Shown one piece after another: positions 4,076 to 60,256 of a stretch of DNA of 64,000 nt (the first letter of the stretch is position 1; every line of letters begins with the position of its first letter). The position numbers were made by a program, and so were the translations under genes. The notes beneath the pieces are model-generated. The model was not told the DNA's origin and did no database searches. It saw nothing but the letters and a program-made list of their open reading frames with translations. The stretch lies in NCBI RefSeq assembly GCF_055900595.2, contig NZ_CM148325.1; one strand, written 5' to 3'.

Positions 4076-4861
4076 TTAGCTGGCCTGCTTTTTCATCATA
4101 CTGATAATAAATAACAGTGCCGCACATAGCACTACCGACGGACCCGCCGGCGTATCGTAAAATGCGGAAAAGGTTAAACCGCCAGTTACTGCCACCATTC
4201 CCACCAAAACAGCGACACCGGCCATCTGTTCCGGCGTGCGGGCAAAGCGACGCGCTGTAGCTGCAGGAATAATCAGCAGCGAAGTAATAATCAACGCGCC
4301 GACAAATTTCATCGCTACACCAATCGTCAATGCTGTCACCAGCATCAACAACAATTTCACGCGCTGTAATTTCACACCATCAACAAACGCCAGATCCGGG
4401 CTAATCGTCATTGACAGCAAATTGCGCCATTGCCAGAACAGAATCGCCACCACGATGACCACGCCAATCGCAATAGAGATGAGATCTTCTGGCGTCACTG
4501 CCAGCAAATCACCGAACAGGTAAGCCATCAAATCAACACGAATGTTAGACATCAGACTAACGACCACCAGGCCCAGCGACAGGGCACTGTGCGCCATAAT
4601 CCCTAATAACGTGTCGATCGCCAGCTGTGGGCGCTTCTCCAGCCATACCAGACCGCCCGCCAGCAGCAGCGTAACCGCAATCACCGCATAGAATGGATTA
4701 ACGTCCAGCAACAAACCAAACGCGACGCCAAGTAACGAGGCATGAGCCAGTGTATCACCGAAATAAGACATACGACGCCAGACCACAAACGAACCCAGCG
4801 GACCCGCGGCACAGGCGAGCATGATCCCGGCTAACCAACCAGGAAATAATAATTCAATCAT
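4076..4861 (-). CDS. znuB: zinc ABC transporter permease ZnuB
   Basis: 261-aa polytopic membrane ORF; synteny with znuC and znuA. Confidence 0.95.
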
Positions 4862-5613
4862 GAGCGATCATTTCCCCGACGCAAAACAATTCGTCCCTGT
4901 AAATCGTGACGATGATTATGATGATGGCGATAGATACCCAGTTGTTCAGCACCACGAGGACCAAACATAGAAATAAACTCCGGATGCAGGGAAACAACTT
5001 CCGGTGTGCCGGAACAACAAATGTGGTGATTCAGGCAAAGCACTTCATCGGTTTTTGCCATTACCAGATGCAGATCGTGAGAGACCATTAAAACGCCACA
5101 ATCCAGTTCGCGACGCAACTGGTCAATAAGGTCATATAACGCCACCTGACCATTCACATCCACGCCCTGAGTGGGTTCATCCAGCACTAATAATTGCGGT
5201 CGATTTAACAATGCTCGCGCTAACAATACACGCTGTGTTTCGCCACCCGAGAGCTTTTGCATCGGTGCGTTAATCAGATGCCCGGCCTGGACACGTTTCA
5301 GTGCAGGCAAAATATCTTCTTTATGTGTGCCAGGGCGTAAGCGTAAAAATCGATTTACGGTCAGTGGCAATGTTGTGTCGAGATACAGCTTCTGCGGTAC
5401 GTAGCCGATGCGCAGTTTTCCGTTGCGCTTGATAACCCCTTCATCGGGTGTTACCAGTCCGAGCACTACCCGTACCAGTGTCGACTTACCTGCGCCATTT
5501 GGCCCAAGTAAAGTTAAAATTTTTCCAGGTTTAAGTTCCAGCGACACATCAGAGAGGACGCGGCGTTGGCCGAAAGAAACCGAGACATTTTCCAGGGAAA
5601 CCAGACTTGTCAT
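4858..5613 (-). CDS. znuC: zinc ABC transporter ATP-binding protein ZnuC
   Basis: 251-aa ORF with Walker [10 protein letters not shown] and ABC signature LSGGETQR; 4-nt overlap with znuB. Confidence 0.95.
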
Positions 5614-5637: not shown

Positions 5638-5662
5638 ATGAAATGTTATAATATCACACTTC
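5638..5662. promoter_or_regulatory. Zur box in the divergent znuCB / znuA promoter region
   Basis: GAAATGTTATAATATCACA matches the Zur operator consensus GAAATGTTATANTATAACATTTC; sits between the divergent znuC and znuA starts. Confidence 0.7.
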
Positions 5663-5691: not shown

Positions 5692-6624
5692 ATGTTACAT
5701 AAAAAAACGCTTCTTTTCGCAGCATTATCCGCCGCTCTCTGGGGGGGTGCAACACAGGCCGCAGATGCTGCCGTTGTCGCTTCGCTTAAACCCGTTGGGT
5801 TCATCGCTTCTGCCATTGCTGATGGGGTAACAGAAACGGAGGTTTTACTACCTGACGGCGCTTCAGAACATGATTATTCACTGCGTCCATCAGATGTAAA
5901 ACGCTTACAGAACGCGGACTTAGTCGTTTGGGTTGGCCCGGAGATGGAAGCGTTCATGCAAAAACCGGTAAGTAAATTACCTGAAGCGAAACAGGTAACG
6001 ATTGCGCAGCTAGAGAATGTGAAACCGCTGCTGATGAAAAGTATTCACGGCGATGATGATGATCACGACCACGCGGAAAAAAGTGACGAAGATCACCATC
6101 ACGGCGATTTCAACATGCATCTTTGGCTTTCCCCAGAGATAGCGCGGGCTACAGCGGTTGCAATCCATGGAAAATTAGTGGAACTTATGCCGCAAAGTCG
6201 AGCCAAACTTGACGCCAACCTGAAGGATTTTGAGGCACAATTAGCCTCAACCGAAAAGCAGGTTGGTAACGAGCTCGCGCCGCTCAAGGGGAAAGGTTAT
6301 TTCGTTTTTCACGATGCTTACGGCTATTTCGAAAAACAGTTCGGACTGACACCGCTTGGTCATTTTACCGTTAACCCTGAGATTCAACCTGGCGCGCAGC
6401 GTTTACATGAAATAAGAACACAGTTGGTTGAGCAAAAAGCAACCTGCGTTTTTGCTGAGCCACAGTTCAGGCCAGCGGTCGTTGAGAGCGTCGCACGAGG
6501 GACATCCGTTCGTATGGGAACGTTGGATCCCCTGGGGACGAATATCAAACTGGGTAAAACAAGCTATTCAGAATTCCTGAATCAATTAGCCAACCAGTAT
6601 GCGAGCTGCCTGAAAGGAGATTAA
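5692..6624 (+). CDS. znuA: periplasmic zinc-binding protein ZnuA (start at MLHKKTLLF; track ORF 5566-6624 is an upstream extension)
   Basis: 310 aa with signal peptide and His/Asp-rich loop [21 protein letters not shown]. Confidence 0.93.
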
Positions 6625-6639
6625 TGAGGAAGTGATTAC

Positions 6640-7962
6640 GTGCAACAGATAGCCCGCTCTGTCGCCCTGGCGTTTAATAATTTACCGCGACCACACCGCG
6701 TTATGTTGGGGTCGCTCACCGTTCTTACTCTGGCCGTCGCTGTCTGGCGGCCCTATGTTTATCACCGCGATGCCACGCCAATTGTCAAAACCATTGAGCT
6801 GGAACAGAACGAAATTCGTTCGCTCTTACCTGAAGCCAGTGAGCCGATTGATCAAGCTGCACAAGAAGATGAAGCCATTCCCCAGGATGAACTGGATGAC
6901 AAAATCGCCGGTGAAGCGGGCGTGCATGAATATGTTGTTTCCACTGGCGATACGCTAAGCAGCATTCTCAATCAGTATGGTATTGATATGGGTGATATCA
7001 CCCAACTGGCTGCTGCTGACAAAGAATTGCGTAACCTGAAAATCGGTCAACAACTTTCCTGGACATTAACCGCGGACGGCGAATTGCAGCGCCTTACCTG
7101 GGAAGTATCTCGTCGGGAAACCCGAACCTATGACCGTACTGCCGCTAACGGTTTTAAAATGACCAGCGAAATGCAGCAAGGAGAGTGGGTCAACAATCTG
7201 CTGAAAGGTACCGTCGGGGGAAGCTTTGTTGCCAGCGCCAGAAACGCCGGTTTAACCAGCGCCGAAGTGAGCGCAGTGATTAAAGCCATGCAGTGGCAAA
7301 TGGATTTCCGCAAACTGAAAAAAGGCGATGAATTTGCGGTGTTAATGTCACGAGAAATGCTTGATGGCAAACGTGAGCAAAGCCAACTGCTGGGCGTACG
7401 TTTGCGTTCAGAAGGTAAAGATTATTACGCAATCCGCGCTGAAGATGGCAAATTCTACGATCGTAACGGTACTGGTCTGGCGAAAGGATTCTTGCGATTC
7501 CCGACGGCGAAACAGTTCCGTATCTCGTCTAACTTTAACCCGCGTCGTACTAATCCGGTGACTGGTCGTGTTGCGCCACACAGAGGTGTTGATTTCGCCA
7601 TGCCACAGGGTACGCCAGTGCTTTCAGTGGGTGACGGTGAAGTGGTGGTTGCCAAACGCAGTGGCGCAGCAGGTTATTATGTGGCTATTCGTCATGGTCG
7701 TAGCTACACCACGCGTTATATGCACTTGCGTAAGATTCTGGTGAAACCAGGACAGAAAGTGAAACGTGGCGACCGTATCGCGCTTTCCGGTAATACTGGG
7801 CGTTCAACCGGGCCGCATTTGCACTATGAAGTCTGGATCAACCAGCAGGCCGTAAACCCGTTGACGGCAAAATTGCCGCGTACCGAAGGGCTGACCGGCT
7901 CCGATCGTCGCGAATTCCTGGCGCAGGCCAAAGAGATTGTGCCGCAGCTACGGTTTGATTAA
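6640..7962 (+). CDS. mepM: murein DD-endopeptidase MepM (YebA), M23/LysM family, GTG start
   Basis: 440-aa ORF with M23 motifs HRGVDFA and GPHLHYEV. Confidence 0.93.
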
Positions 7963-58524: not shown

Positions 58525-60210
58525 TTGAAGAAGGTTTGGCTTAACCGTTATCCCGCGGACGTTCCGACGGAGATCAACCCTGACCGTTATCAATCTCTGG
58601 TAGATATGTTTGAGCAGTCGGTCGCGCGCTACGCCGATCAACCCGCGTTTGTGAATATGGGGGAGGTGATGACCTTCCGCAAACTGGAAGAACGCAGTCG
58701 CGCGTTTGCCGCTTATTTGCAACAAGGGTTGGGACTGAAGAAAGGCGATCGCGTTGCGTTGATGATGCCTAATTTATTGCAATATCCGGTGGCGCTGTTT
58801 GGCATTTTGCGTGCCGGGATGATCGTTGTAAACGTTAACCCGTTGTATACCCCGCGTGAGCTGGAGCATCAGCTTAACGATAGCGGCGCATCAGCGATTG
58901 TTATCGTGTCTAATTTTGCCCACACTCTGGAAAAAGTGGTTGATAAAACCGCCGTTCAGCACGTTATTCTGACCCGTATGGGCGATCAGCTATCCACGGC
59001 AAAAGGCACGGTAGTCAACTTCGTTGTTAAATACATCAAGCGTCTGGTGCCGAAATACCATCTTCCAGATGCCATCTCATTTCGCAGCGCACTGCATAAC
59101 GGCTACCGGATGCAGTACGTCAAACCCGAACTGGTGCCAGAAGATTTAGCTTTCCTGCAATATACCGGCGGTACCACTGGTGTGGCGAAGGGCGCGATGC
59201 TGACTCACCGCAATATGCTGGCGAATCTGGAACAAGTTAACGCGACTTATGGGCCGCTGTTGCATCCGGGCAAAGAGCTGGTGGTGACGGCACTGCCGCT
59301 GTATCACATTTTTGCTCTGACCATTAACTGCCTGCTGTTTATTGAACTGGGTGGGCAGAACCTGCTTATCACTAACCCGCGCGATATTCCGGGGTTGGTA
59401 AAAGAGTTAGCGAAATATCCGTTTACCGCGATAACCGGCGTTAACACCTTGTTCAATGCGTTGCTGAACAATAAAGAGTTCCAGCAGCTGGATTTCTCCA
59501 GTCTGCATCTTTCTGCAGGCGGTGGTATGCCTGTTCAACAAGTGGTGGCTGAACGTTGGGTGAAACTGACCGGACAGTATCTGCTGGAAGGTTATGGCCT
59601 GACCGAGTGTGCGCCGCTGGTCAGCGTTAACCCGTATGATATTGATTATCATAGTGGTAGCATCGGTTTGCCGGTGCCGTCGACGGAAGCCAAACTGGTG
59701 GATGATGATGATAATGAAGTACCACCGGGTCAACCGGGTGAGCTTTGTGTCAAAGGACCGCAGGTGATGCTGGGTTACTGGCAGCGTCCGGATGCTACCG
59801 ATGAAATCATCAAAAATGGCTGGTTACACACCGGCGATATCGCGGTGATGGATGAAGAAGGATTCCTGCGCATTGTCGATCGTAAAAAAGACATGATTCT
59901 GGTTTCCGGTTTTAATGTCTATCCCAACGAAATTGAAGATGTCGTCATGCAGCATCCTGGCGTACAGGAAGTCGCAGCTGTTGGCGTACCTTCCGGCTCC
60001 AGTGGTGAAGCGGTGAAAATCTTCGTAGTGAAAAAAGATCCATCGCTTACCGAAGAGTCACTGGTGACCTTTTGCCGCCGTCAGCTCACGGGCTACAAAG
60101 TACCGAAGCTGGTGGAGTTTCGTGATGAGTTACCGAAATCTAACGTCGGAAAAATTTTGCGACGAGAATTACGTGACGAAGCGCGCGGCAAAGTGGACAA
60201 TAAAGCCTGA
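58525..60210 (+). CDS. fadD: long-chain fatty acid-CoA ligase FadD (TTG start at [10 protein letters not shown]; the track ORF is extended upstream)
   Basis: 561 aa with AMP-binding motif [12 protein letters not shown]. Confidence 0.93.
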
Positions 60211-60228
60211 GCGTTAAGTCAGTCGTCA

Positions 60229-60256
60229 GACGCCGGTTAATCCGGCGTTTTTTTTG
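60229..60256 (+). terminator. rho-independent terminator downstream of fadD
   Basis: CGCCGGTTAATCCGGCG hairpin followed by TTTTTTTT. Confidence 0.8.

What the first reader, a model, noticed from the sequence alone, without database searches (positions are those of the whole stretch)
6052..6120. His/Asp/Glu-rich loop in ZnuA
The stretch [25 protein letters not shown] is a compositionally extreme, low-complexity coding region. It is the flexible metal-binding loop typical of ZnuA and is noted so it is not mistaken for a repeat or assembly artefact.
Basis: established knowledge. Interest (0 to 1): 0.15.

Follow-up and report, generated by a model that had tools for sequence, protein, structure and literature searches.

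The report
Zinc-grabbing flexible loop of ZnuA
This is the well-known histidine- and acid-rich flexible loop of the E. coli zinc-capture protein ZnuA; it is real and ordinary, and the only new detail is that rare natural strains have cleanly lost it more than once.

Summary
[25 protein letters not shown] is residues 119-143 of a 310-aa ORF (5692-6624, +). It lies at nt 6046-6120, so the stated start of 6052 is two codons late. Composition is extreme: 17 of 25 residues are His/Asp/Glu, and none of 20,000 shuffles reached that.

The ORF is E. coli ZnuA. It scores 525.6 bits against the NCBIfam equivalog (cut-off 268) and is 306/310 identical to crystallised ZnuA, with an identical loop. It lies divergent to znuCB, with a Zur box between them. 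All 5,425 complete E. coli genomes that match carry the loop, and there is no tandem array, so it is not an artefact.

In 146 diverse homologues an insert of 11-83 aa always sits at this position. 132 of them have at least 3 His; the named His-free cases are insect endosymbionts. AlphaFold2 is confident everywhere except residues ~119-140.

One refinement: the last His (H143) is a primary zinc ligand, not loop.

The loop most likely acts as a low-affinity zinc antenna that hands metal to the primary site. This role is still debated in the literature.

Side finding: two perfect 10-nt direct repeats flank the loop, and a precise 54-nt deletion between them occurs in draft E. coli assemblies on several allelic backgrounds.

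Already known; low interest.

The parts
5692..6624 (+). znuA coding sequence (310 aa plus stop): periplasmic zinc-binding protein of the ZnuABC importer
   Evidence: ORF. NCBIfam NF007091 525.6 bits against cut-off 268. Pfam PF01297 1.8e-65. 306/310 identical to PDB 2ogw/2osv. Annotated znuA in 5,425 complete genomes.
5692..5769 (+). Signal peptide (residues 1-26, [26 protein letters not shown])
   Evidence: The mature crystallised chain 2osv_A starts at query residue 27. The N-terminus is a hydrophobic helix with lower pLDDT in the AF2 model. No dedicated signal-peptide predictor was available.
6040..6111 (+). His/Asp/Glu-rich flexible loop proper (residues 117-140, [24 protein letters not shown]): the insert between the conserved ...PLLMK strand and the NMHLW ligand motif
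   Evidence: Insert boundaries come from the alignment of 146 homologues. AF2 pLDDT block means are 55 (121-130) and 61 (131-140), against 97-98 on either side, with no secondary structure at 121-139.
6046..6120 (+).
   Evidence: The finding's start of 6052 is two codons late.
6118..6120 (+). Codon of His143, a primary-site zinc ligand (not loop)
   Evidence: Invariant in 86 of 86 aligned homologues and part of the HHH ligand set kept in 143 of 146. Ligand set Glu59/His60/His143/His207 from PMC8900738.
5866..5871 (+). Codons of Glu59 and His60, primary-site zinc ligands
   Evidence: Sequence. H60 is invariant. Position 59 is Glu in only 9 of 146 homologues and Pro in 128. Ligand assignment from the literature.
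6310..6312 (+). Codon of His207, primary-site zinc ligand
   Evidence: Sequence. Invariant. Ligand assignment from the literature.
6045..6054 (+). Left copy of the perfect 10-nt direct repeat TCACGGCGAT (encodes ..H-G-D)
   Evidence: the repeat finder family D3. It is the boundary of the natural 54-nt deletion.
6099..6108 (+). Right copy of the perfect 10-nt direct repeat TCACGGCGAT
   Evidence: Deletion alleles keep exactly one copy.
6052..6063 (+). (GAT)4 run encoding DDDD; site of a one-codon contraction in one complete genome
   Evidence: Codon list. NZ_CP115984.1 lacks one GAT. The poly-Asp run length varies among Citrobacter-named and other close relatives.
5640..5662 (+). Zur-box-like palindrome GAAATGTTATAATATCACACTTC in the 78-nt znuC-znuA divergent intergenic region
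   Evidence: It is the only match in the 64 kb to GAAATGTTATANTATAACATTTC (2 mismatches), with 0 matches in 100 shuffles. The consensus was recalled from my own knowledge. Zur control of znuACB is stated in PMC12236471.
4858..5613 (-). znuC, ATPase subunit, divergently transcribed from znuA
   Evidence: NCBIfam NF007090 535.6 bits against cut-off 306.
4076..4861 (-). znuB, permease subunit
   Evidence: NCBIfam NF007089 534.3 bits against cut-off 284.

Best explanation
The stretch encodes the disordered, solvent-exposed His/Asp/Glu-rich loop of E. coli ZnuA. ZnuA is the periplasmic zinc-binding protein that feeds the Zur-repressed ZnuBC ABC importer.

Shown here:
- The protein is ZnuA.
- The loop is an insert of about 24 residues, located just upstream of the second of three invariant zinc-ligand histidines.
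- It is predicted with low confidence on an otherwise confident fold.
- An insert at this exact position is universal in the family, usually rich in His and acidic residues, but very variable in length and sequence.
- Its last quoted histidine (H143) belongs to the buried high-affinity site, not to the loop.

Inferred from published work on E. coli, Salmonella, Citrobacter, Synechocystis and pneumococcal homologues:
- The loop's imidazoles and carboxylates form one or more extra, weaker zinc sites next to the mouth of the primary site.
- The mobile loop acts as an antenna. It captures scarce Zn2+, or takes it from the accessory protein ZinT, and passes it to the Glu59/His60/His143/His207 site. 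ZnuA then closes and docks on ZnuB.
- The loop helps only under severe zinc limitation and is dispensable for folding and for high-affinity binding.

Confidence that this is the ZnuA loop is about 0.99. Confidence in the capture-and-hand-off role specifically is about 0.55-0.6.
For: Identity:
- NCBIfam ZnuA equivalog 525.6 bits against cut-off 268, with ZnuC and ZnuB equivalogs next door.
- Pfam PF01297.
- 306/310 identity to PDB 2ogw/2osv, with an identical loop.
- A single Zur-box match in the divergent promoter region.
- Annotated znuA in 5,425 complete genomes.

Anatomy:
- 17 of 25 residues are His/Asp/Glu, with 0 of 20,000 shuffles reaching that.
- An insert is present in 146 of 146 diverse homologues: length 11-83 aa, median 32, median 8 His, 132 with at least 3 His. 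The HHH ligands are kept in 143 of 146.
- AF2 mean pLDDT is 91.9, but 55-61 over residues 121-140, with no secondary structure there.

Function (literature):
- Ligands are Glu59/His60/His143/His207.
- The loop is disordered in crystal structures.
- Citrobacter koseri ZnuA with the loop deleted (dLoop) binds one Zn, against at least three for wild type.
- In Salmonella ZnuA a loop His (His140) replaces His60 at the zinc, which suggested a loop-first binding pathway (PMC8900738).
- Loop sites have micromolar affinity, 3-4 orders of magnitude weaker than the primary site, and E. coli ZnuA binds about 1.85 Zn per protein (PMC4542158).
- The loop enters ZinT in the Salmonella ZnuA-ZinT complex (PMC9175090).
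- In pneumococcal AdcA, deleting the loop alone has no effect, but deleting the loop plus the ZinT-like domain impairs growth and zinc accumulation only under zinc restriction (PMC7858048).
Against: The loop is dispensable:
- Engineered dLoop proteins fold and bind zinc.
- Natural E. coli isolates with a precise 18-aa loop deletion exist.
- Endosymbiont orthologues have lost the histidines.

The two primary papers on E. coli ZnuA metal binding (Yatsunyk 2008) and on Salmonella loop-deleted ZnuA and ZinT (Petrarca 2010) are not in the held library. Their content is cited only second-hand.
Confidence: 0.8

Rival explanations
1. The loop's main job is protein-protein recognition. It docks into the accessory periplasmic zinc protein ZinT (YodA) and serves as the conduit for ZinT-to-ZnuA zinc transfer, rather than capturing free zinc itself.
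For: The review PMC9175090 reports that in the Salmonella ZnuA-ZinT complex the His-rich loop enters the space between the two ZinT domains and 'governs this interaction'. In AdcA the loop lies at the interface with the fused ZinT-like domain.
Against: This overlaps with the best explanation and is not exclusive of it. His-rich loops occur at this position in 132 of 146 diverse homologues, and many organisms with an ABC zinc importer lack the accessory chaperone. [quoted passage not shown]
Confidence: 0.2
2. The loop is a regulatory sensor. At high periplasmic zinc it binds metal and blocks the primary site or the docking of ZnuA on ZnuB, throttling uptake.
For: Proposed for Synechocystis ZnuA (Wei et al. 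2007, as cited). The low micromolar affinity of the loop sites would fit a sensor of excess zinc.
Against: The authors of PMC8900738 state that little conclusive evidence exists. E. coli already has two other brakes: Zur repression and the cytoplasmic zinc-sensing domain of ZnuC (the motif is present in this window). In AdcA, removing the loop and the ZinT-like domain reduces uptake under zinc restriction rather than increasing it.
Confidence: 0.12
3. The loop is a tolerated low-complexity spacer with no selected function in E. coli. Any flexible linker would do, and the His/Asp/Glu bias is a historical leftover.
For: Length and sequence are very variable (11-83 aa). The loop-less allele arises naturally. 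Endosymbiont orthologues replaced the loop with Asn/Lys/Ile-rich sequence while keeping the ligands. dLoop mutants of homologues lack a phenotype on their own.
Against: His enrichment is about tenfold over the rest of the protein, and it is maintained across 132 of 146 very divergent lineages despite free sequence drift. That indicates selection on composition. All 5,425 matching complete E. coli genomes keep the loop, with at most a one-codon change, despite a built-in deletion-prone repeat. The His-poor cases that could be named are confined to reduced-genome endosymbionts.
Confidence: 0.07
4. The stretch is a DNA-level repeat, an assembly or sequencing artefact, or serves the antisense ORF at 6010-6168 (52 aa).
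For: There is a (GAT)4 run, a 10-nt direct repeat and a weak 20-nt echo at 30-nt spacing. A minus-strand ORF overlaps the loop.
Against: TRF finds no array. The same sequence is present, full length, in 5,425 independently assembled complete genomes and in crystallised protein. Indels among relatives all preserve the + frame. The antisense ORF's Val/Ile run is just the complement of the GAT/GAC codons, and nothing else supports it.
Confidence: 0.01

Closest known systems
E. coli K-12 ZnuA (PDB 2OSV, 2OGW, 2PRS, 2PS0, 2PS3, 2PS9)
   Same: Same gene, with 306/310 identical residues. The loop sequence is identical, the ligands are the same (Glu59/His60/His143/His207), and the operon context and Zur box are the same.
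   Different: Four substitutions outside the loop: G98E, D109N, T189K and S297N relative to the crystallised K-12 sequence. The window's allele is the one found in strains such as N3 and 042.
Salmonella enterica ZnuA (PDB 2XQV, 2XY4, 4BBP; 2XH8 matches in two stretches) and Citrobacter koseri ZnuA (PDB 7RCJ)
   Same: Orthologues of about 87-90% identity, with the loop at the same position and near-invariant flanks. An engineered dLoop C. koseri protein binds one zinc instead of at least three.
   Different: Among Citrobacter-named and other close relatives the loops range from as long as this one to 11 residues longer and differ in sequence (for example GADDDDDDHDHDHEHGEKGDAHHHHGDY). They lack the N-terminal His-Gly-Asp, so they do not have the E. 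coli 10-nt flanking direct repeat. In Salmonella a loop His (His140) was seen coordinating the primary zinc.
Synechocystis 6803 ZnuA (PDB 1PQ4; loop-deleted 2OV1/2OV3)
   Same: Same fold, with a His-rich loop at the same position. The loop-deleted protein is folded.
   Different: A distant homologue (E 5e-26). The fourth ligand is water instead of Glu. Position 59 is Pro in 128 of 146 homologues and Glu in only 9. This is the source of the regulatory-sensor hypothesis.
Streptococcus pneumoniae AdcA N-terminal domain His-rich loop (PDB 7JJ8/7JJ9)
   Same: A cluster A-I zinc-binding protein with a disordered His/Glu-rich loop (residues 120-136) at the equivalent place. Best in vivo evidence that the loop is an accessory that aids zinc recruitment.
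   Different: A lipoprotein from a Gram-positive organism with a fused ZinT-like domain. The loop is shorter.
Cytosolic His-rich loops of ZnT/CDF and ZIP zinc transporters
   Same: They work alike: disordered His-rich segments of variable length next to a transport site, proposed to recruit or sense Zn2+.
   Different: Unrelated membrane proteins with cytosolic loops. This is an analogy only, with no homology.

Membership tests
ZnuA (zinc-specific cluster A-I, group II substrate-binding protein; NCBIfam NF007091 / Pfam PF01297) | Whole-protein score above the curated equivalog and gathering cut-offs | tested here: met
   NF007091 scores 525.6 bits against 268, covering residues 2-308. PF01297 scores 221.5 bits against 29. 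The next best model (AztC, 143 bits) is far below its own cut-off of 350.
ZnuA (zinc-specific cluster A-I, group II substrate-binding protein; NCBIfam NF007091 / Pfam PF01297) | Two-lobed alpha/beta fold joined by a long rigid helix | tested here: met
   99% identical to the solved structures 2ogw/2osv. The AF2 model has mean pLDDT 91.9 and pTM 0.89, with long helices at 148-165 and 167-198 between the two beta/alpha lobes.
ZnuA (zinc-specific cluster A-I, group II substrate-binding protein; NCBIfam NF007091 / Pfam PF01297) | Three conserved His ligands, plus Glu or water as the fourth | tested here: met
   H60, H143 and H207 are present and invariant in the 86-sequence alignment, and kept in 143 of 146 homologues. 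Glu59 is present. Ligand roles come from the literature.
ZnuA (zinc-specific cluster A-I, group II substrate-binding protein; NCBIfam NF007091 / Pfam PF01297) | [quoted passage not shown] | tested here: met
   Residues 117-140 hold 6 His and 10 Asp/Glu out of 24. An insert is present at the same position in 146 of 146 homologues. There is a low-pLDDT hole.
ZnuA (zinc-specific cluster A-I, group II substrate-binding protein; NCBIfam NF007091 / Pfam PF01297) | Periplasmic export signal | tested here: met
   The crystallised mature chain 2osv starts at residue 27, after ...TQAADA. The N-terminal 26 residues are basic and then hydrophobic. No dedicated predictor was run.
ZnuA (zinc-specific cluster A-I, group II substrate-binding protein; NCBIfam NF007091 / Pfam PF01297) | Genetic linkage to znuC/znuB and a Zur operator | tested here: met
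   ZnuC and ZnuB equivalogs are divergently adjacent. There is a unique Zur-box-like site at 5640-5662 in the 78-nt intergenic region.
ZnuA (zinc-specific cluster A-I, group II substrate-binding protein; NCBIfam NF007091 / Pfam PF01297) | The loop itself binds Zn2+ (extra, weaker sites) and is disordered in crystals | not testable with these tools
   Literature only. E. coli ZnuA binds about 1.85 Zn per protein, the loop has micromolar affinity, and the loop is disordered in crystal structures. The AF2 confidence dip is consistent but is not a measurement.
DNA tandem repeat / assembly artefact | Head-to-tail periodic DNA units; presence or length unstable between independent assemblies | tested here: not met
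   TRF gives 0 rows at minimum score 30. The 161-nt probe is covered at 80% or more in 5,425 of 5,425 matching complete genomes. The weakest hit differs by one GAT codon.

The most novel reading that the evidence does not exclude
The perfect 10-nt direct repeats (TCACGGCGAT) that bracket the E. coli loop make it a recurrent, precise 54-nt deletion hotspot.

Loop-less ZnuA (292 aa) has arisen independently on several E. coli backgrounds. The most novel reading is that these alleles are not just transient slippage products. They would be favoured in particular niches, for example zinc-replete habitats, or settings where the exposed charged loop is a liability.

That would give a set of natural knock-outs with which the long-debated function of the loop could be tested.
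Probability: 0.1. Interest if true: 0.4.

Novelty: already known. Interest (0 to 1): 0.12.

Why it matters
It matters little as a discovery. The ZnuA His-rich loop has been described structurally and biochemically since about 2003-2008 and is a defining feature of zinc-specific cluster A-I binding proteins. Flagging it is still useful housekeeping: it is a genuine coding low-complexity region that should not be masked, trimmed or mistaken for a repeat or artefact.

The modestly useful by-product is the recurrent natural deletion. Rare E. coli isolates carry an exact, repeat-mediated excision of the loop on different genetic backgrounds, yet none of 5,425 complete genomes does. That combination points to a mutation-prone site kept intact by selection. 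It argues that the loop is beneficial but not essential. It also offers ready-made natural alleles for testing whether the loop acts as a zinc antenna, a ZinT docking element or a sensor. ZnuABC is a virulence determinant and a proposed drug target in enterobacteria.

Tried and rejected
- my first translation coordinates were one base out of frame (5693). I corrected them to 5692.
- the word-indexed protein search returned only close enterobacterial relatives (87% identity or more) in its 120 listed rows. That was useless for a broad orthologue test, so I replaced it with the 50%-clustered representative search. It did surface the deletion allele P0102.
- a 400-nt synthetic deletion-junction query could not discriminate, because wild-type genomes align as two pieces 54 nt apart with 100% coverage.
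- I replaced that query with a 44-nt junction probe (no match) and a 161-nt loop-centred probe (all 5,425 at 80% coverage or more). Together these show that no complete genome carries the deletion.
- a tandem-repeat explanation was rejected, since TRF found none.
- the minus-strand terminator-like hairpin at 6102-6083 and the promoter-like site at 5900-5873 lie inside the coding sequence and are at chance frequency, so I ignored them.
- the second His-rich six-frame fragment (44555-44629 +) is an antisense frame of a real gene, so it was rejected.
- Yatsunyk et al. 2008 (PMC2630496) and Petrarca et al. 2010 (PMC2832539) are not held. Their results are used only as reported by held papers.
- the review PMC10932157 deals with ZnT/ZIP His-loops, not ZnuA. 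It is used only for the analogy.
- a literature search for a natural in-frame znuA loop deletion found nothing relevant.
- P0100 (287 aa) looked like a loop deletion by length, but it lacks residues 84-106 instead.

Full report
**What is at the coordinates**

The + strand between 5692 (ATG) and 6624 (stop) is a 310-codon ORF. The stated end is exact. The stated start of 6052 is two codons late, since 6052-6120 translates as DDDDHDH...NMH.

**Is the composition more than chance?**

The 25 residues hold 7 His, 8 Asp and 2 Glu, so 68% His/Asp/Glu against 12.6% in the rest of the protein. In 20,000 shuffles of the protein, the richest 25-residue window averaged 8.7 such residues and never exceeded 14; the observed value is 17. 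This is also the lowest-entropy window of the protein, and the most His/Asp/Glu-rich window among all long six-frame ORF fragments of the 64-kb window. The only other His-rich fragment (44555-44629 +) is the antisense reading of a real membrane-protein gene on the minus strand, so it is not a second case.

At the DNA level there is no tandem array and GC content is unremarkable. The only repeats are a (GAT)4 run, a weak 20-nt echo at 30-nt spacing, and a perfect 10-nt direct repeat TCACGGCGAT at 6045-6054 and 6099-6108.

**What the gene is**

- The ORF scores 525.6 bits against NCBIfam's ZnuA equivalog (cut-off 268).
- The two minus-strand ORFs immediately upstream are ZnuC (535.6 against 306) and ZnuB (534.3 against 284).
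- The ORF 15 nt downstream is the murein endopeptidase MepM.
- Pfam gives PF01297 only.
- The protein is 306/310 identical to crystallised E. coli ZnuA (2ogw, 2osv and four more entries), with an identical loop. The mature crystallised chain starts at residue 27, which defines a 26-residue signal peptide.
- The 78-nt divergent intergenic region holds the only match in the whole window to the Zur-box palindrome (5640-5662, 2 mismatches, none in 100 shuffles).
- The stretch is found in 5,425 of 5,426 complete E. coli genomes and is annotated znuA. The window's allele (E98, N109, K189, N297) matches strains such as N3 and 042 rather than K-12.

**Not an artefact**

A 161-nt probe centred on the loop is covered at 80% or more in every one of the 5,425 matching complete genomes, at 95.7-100% identity. 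The single length variant seen (NZ_CP115984.1) has one GAT fewer, giving DDD instead of DDDD.

The close-relative list already shows near-invariant flanks around a loop that changes in length and sequence among the closest relatives, those named being Citrobacter.

For real breadth I used the library clustered at 50% identity and aligned the 150 best representatives; 146 were usable.

- All 146 have an insert between the ...PLLMK strand and the NMHLW motif.
- Insert length is 11-83 residues, median 32. The E. coli loop, at 24 residues, sits at about the 27th percentile.
- Median His count is 8.
- His makes up 26% of the insert against 2.4% elsewhere. Asp+Glu make up 31% against 10.6%.
- 132 of 146 have at least 3 His.
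- The three ligand histidines are kept in 143 of 146 and are invariant in an 86-sequence alignment.
- Position 59 is Glu in only 9 and Pro in 128, matching the published 'Glu or water' fourth ligand.
- Several very long loops are internally periodic (7-, 8-, 11- and 13-residue units), so they grew by local duplication.

The exceptions are 3 loops without His and 14 with 2 or fewer. Of the His-free and His-poor ones I looked up, those that carry a name are ZnuA of reduced-genome insect endosymbionts: Candidatus Pantoea edessiphila, Wigglesworthia, Arsenophonus, Buchnera and Candidatus Schneideria. There the insert persists but has become Asn/Lys/Ile-rich, while the ligands remain.

**Flexibility**

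AlphaFold2, run with the 86-sequence alignment, gives a very confident model (mean pLDDT 91.9, pTM 0.89). It has a sharp hole: block means of 55 (121-130) and 61 (131-140), against 97-98 on either side, with no secondary structure at 121-139. Held papers state that the loop is disordered in cluster A-I crystal structures.

**Refinement of the interpretation**

The quoted peptide runs past the loop. His143, its last residue, is one of the four primary-site ligands of E. coli ZnuA: Glu59, His60, His143 and His207 (PMC8900738). The loop proper is about residues 117-140, nt 6040-6111.

**How it most likely works**

Shown here:
- the identity of the protein;
- the position of the loop next to a ligand histidine;
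- its predicted disorder;
- family-wide conservation of composition but not of sequence.

From the literature:
- The loop supplies extra zinc sites that are 3-4 orders of magnitude weaker than the nanomolar primary site, and E. coli ZnuA binds about 1.85 Zn per protein.
- Loop-deleted C. koseri ZnuA binds one zinc instead of at least three.
- In Salmonella ZnuA a loop histidine (His140) replaces His60 on the bound zinc, which suggested a loop-first binding pathway.
- The loop inserts into ZinT in the Salmonella ZnuA-ZinT complex.
- In pneumococcal AdcA, loss of the loop alone is silent. Loss of the loop together with the ZinT-like domain impairs growth and zinc accumulation only under zinc restriction.

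I therefore favour a mobile low-affinity antenna that captures Zn2+, free or from ZinT, and hands it to the buried site (about 0.55-0.6). The rivals are a ZinT-docking role as the main function (0.2, not exclusive), a high-zinc sensor or brake (0.12), and a functionless spacer (0.07). The authors of the held papers themselves call the function enigmatic.

**Side finding: a recurrent natural loop deletion**

P0102 is an E. coli-type ZnuA reading ...KSI|HGDFNMH..., so it is missing 18 residues. Its 90% cluster has 7 member sequences. These include 292-aa proteins with GenBank and RefSeq-style accessions (for example EGE0656300.1 and HAG6001173.1), seen on at least 74 contigs of up to 2.4 Mb.

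DNA from three carriers (L001, L002, L004) shows exactly 54 nt missing between the two TCACGGCGAT copies, with one copy retained. The ruvA-ruvB-znuB-znuC-znuA-mepM-lpxM-pyk context is intact. L001 is 100% identical to several wild-type complete genomes except for those 54 nt.

The deletion occurs on at least four protein backgrounds. It also occurs on three DNA backgrounds that differ by 48-156 substitutions over 6.9 kb, including four differences within 30 nt of the junction. It appears in assemblies from different pipelines: NCBI submitter and third-party assemblies, ENA and Logan. Independent repeat-mediated slippage events are the parsimonious reading. Recombinational spread is not formally excluded, and I could not inspect reads.

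No complete genome carries the deletion. No held paper reports it. A deletion-prone site that is nevertheless intact in 5,425 of 5,425 complete genomes suggests purifying selection. The existence of viable carriers confirms that the loop is dispensable. The close relatives aligned lack the N-terminal His-Gly-Asp, so this particular hotspot is specific to E. coli-type znuA.

**Verdict**

The feature is already known, so interest is low. The recurrent natural deletion is a small but usable extra.

Noticed in passing
window 6045-6108 (deletion of 54 nt between the direct repeats at 6045-6054 and 6099-6108); loci L001, L002, L004: Rare draft E. coli assemblies encode a 292-aa ZnuA that lacks 18 loop residues. 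It is the product of a precise excision between two perfect 10-nt direct repeats. It is seen on at least 4 protein and 3 DNA backgrounds, and in none of 5,425 complete genomes.
   Followed up: yes
window 6052-6063; locus L003 (NZ_CP115984.1): One complete genome has (GAT)3 instead of (GAT)4, giving DDD instead of DDDD. The poly-Asp run length also varies among the close relatives aligned, which fits triplet slippage.
   Followed up: yes
window 5640-5662: A Zur-box-like palindrome (GAAATGTTATAATATCACACTTC) lies in the 78-nt znuC/znuA divergent intergenic region. It is the only such site in the 64 kb. The simple sigma-70 scan found no consensus promoter in that region.
   Followed up: partly
window 5014-5037 and 4906-4926 (minus strand, znuC residues 193-200 and 230-236): ZnuC carries CLNHHICC (the CxxxHxCC motif) and a second His-rich run, HHHNHRH, near its C-terminus. 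This matches the cytoplasmic zinc-sensing domain described in a 2025 cryo-EM preprint (PMC12236471).
   Followed up: partly
window 6624-6640: Only 15 nt separate the znuA stop from the start of mepM (an M23-family murein endopeptidase). No terminator-like site lies between them, so mepM may be co-transcribed with Zur-regulated znuA.
   Followed up: no
window 6010-6168 (minus strand): A 52-aa antisense ORF overlaps the loop. Its Val/Ile run (VVVIIIIAV) is simply the complement of the GAT/GAC codons, so it is probably spurious.
   Followed up: no
proteins P0132, P0173, P0138, P0148, P0134: ZnuA orthologues of reduced-genome insect endosymbionts (Candidatus Pantoea edessiphila, Wigglesworthia, Arsenophonus, Buchnera, Candidatus Schneideria) keep the insert and the three His ligands. 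Their loops have nearly or entirely lost the histidines and become Asn/Lys/Ile-rich.
   Followed up: partly
proteins P0133 cluster, P0193, P0158, P0172, P0269: Some ZnuA loops are long internal tandem repeats, for example a 7-aa period over 83 residues. Pasteurella multocida ZnuA varies from 324 to 342 aa within one 90% cluster. So loop length polymorphism by repeat expansion and contraction also occurs in other species.
   Followed up: partly
protein P0100: Another E. coli ZnuA variant (287 aa) lacks residues 84-106 ([23 protein letters not shown]) outside the loop. That would remove structured elements, so it is probably a defective allele.
   Followed up: no
window 5692-6624: The window's ZnuA differs from the K-12 crystallised protein at four positions outside the loop (G98E, D109N, T189K, S297N). 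The best DNA matches are strains such as N3 and 042, not K-12 (about 98.3% over 1.15 kb).
   Followed up: partly
window 25028-25172, 40662-41121, 60169-60254: Rfam gathering-level hits: the overlapping antisense sRNA pair RyeA/SraC (minus) and SdsR/RyeB (plus), a cspA-type thermoregulator leader, and sroD.
   Followed up: no
window 44555-44629 (plus strand): The second most His-rich six-frame fragment of the window lies in a 253-aa ORF that is entirely antisense to two real membrane-protein ORFs (43526-44386 and 44390-45190, minus strand). It is not a gene.
   Followed up: yes
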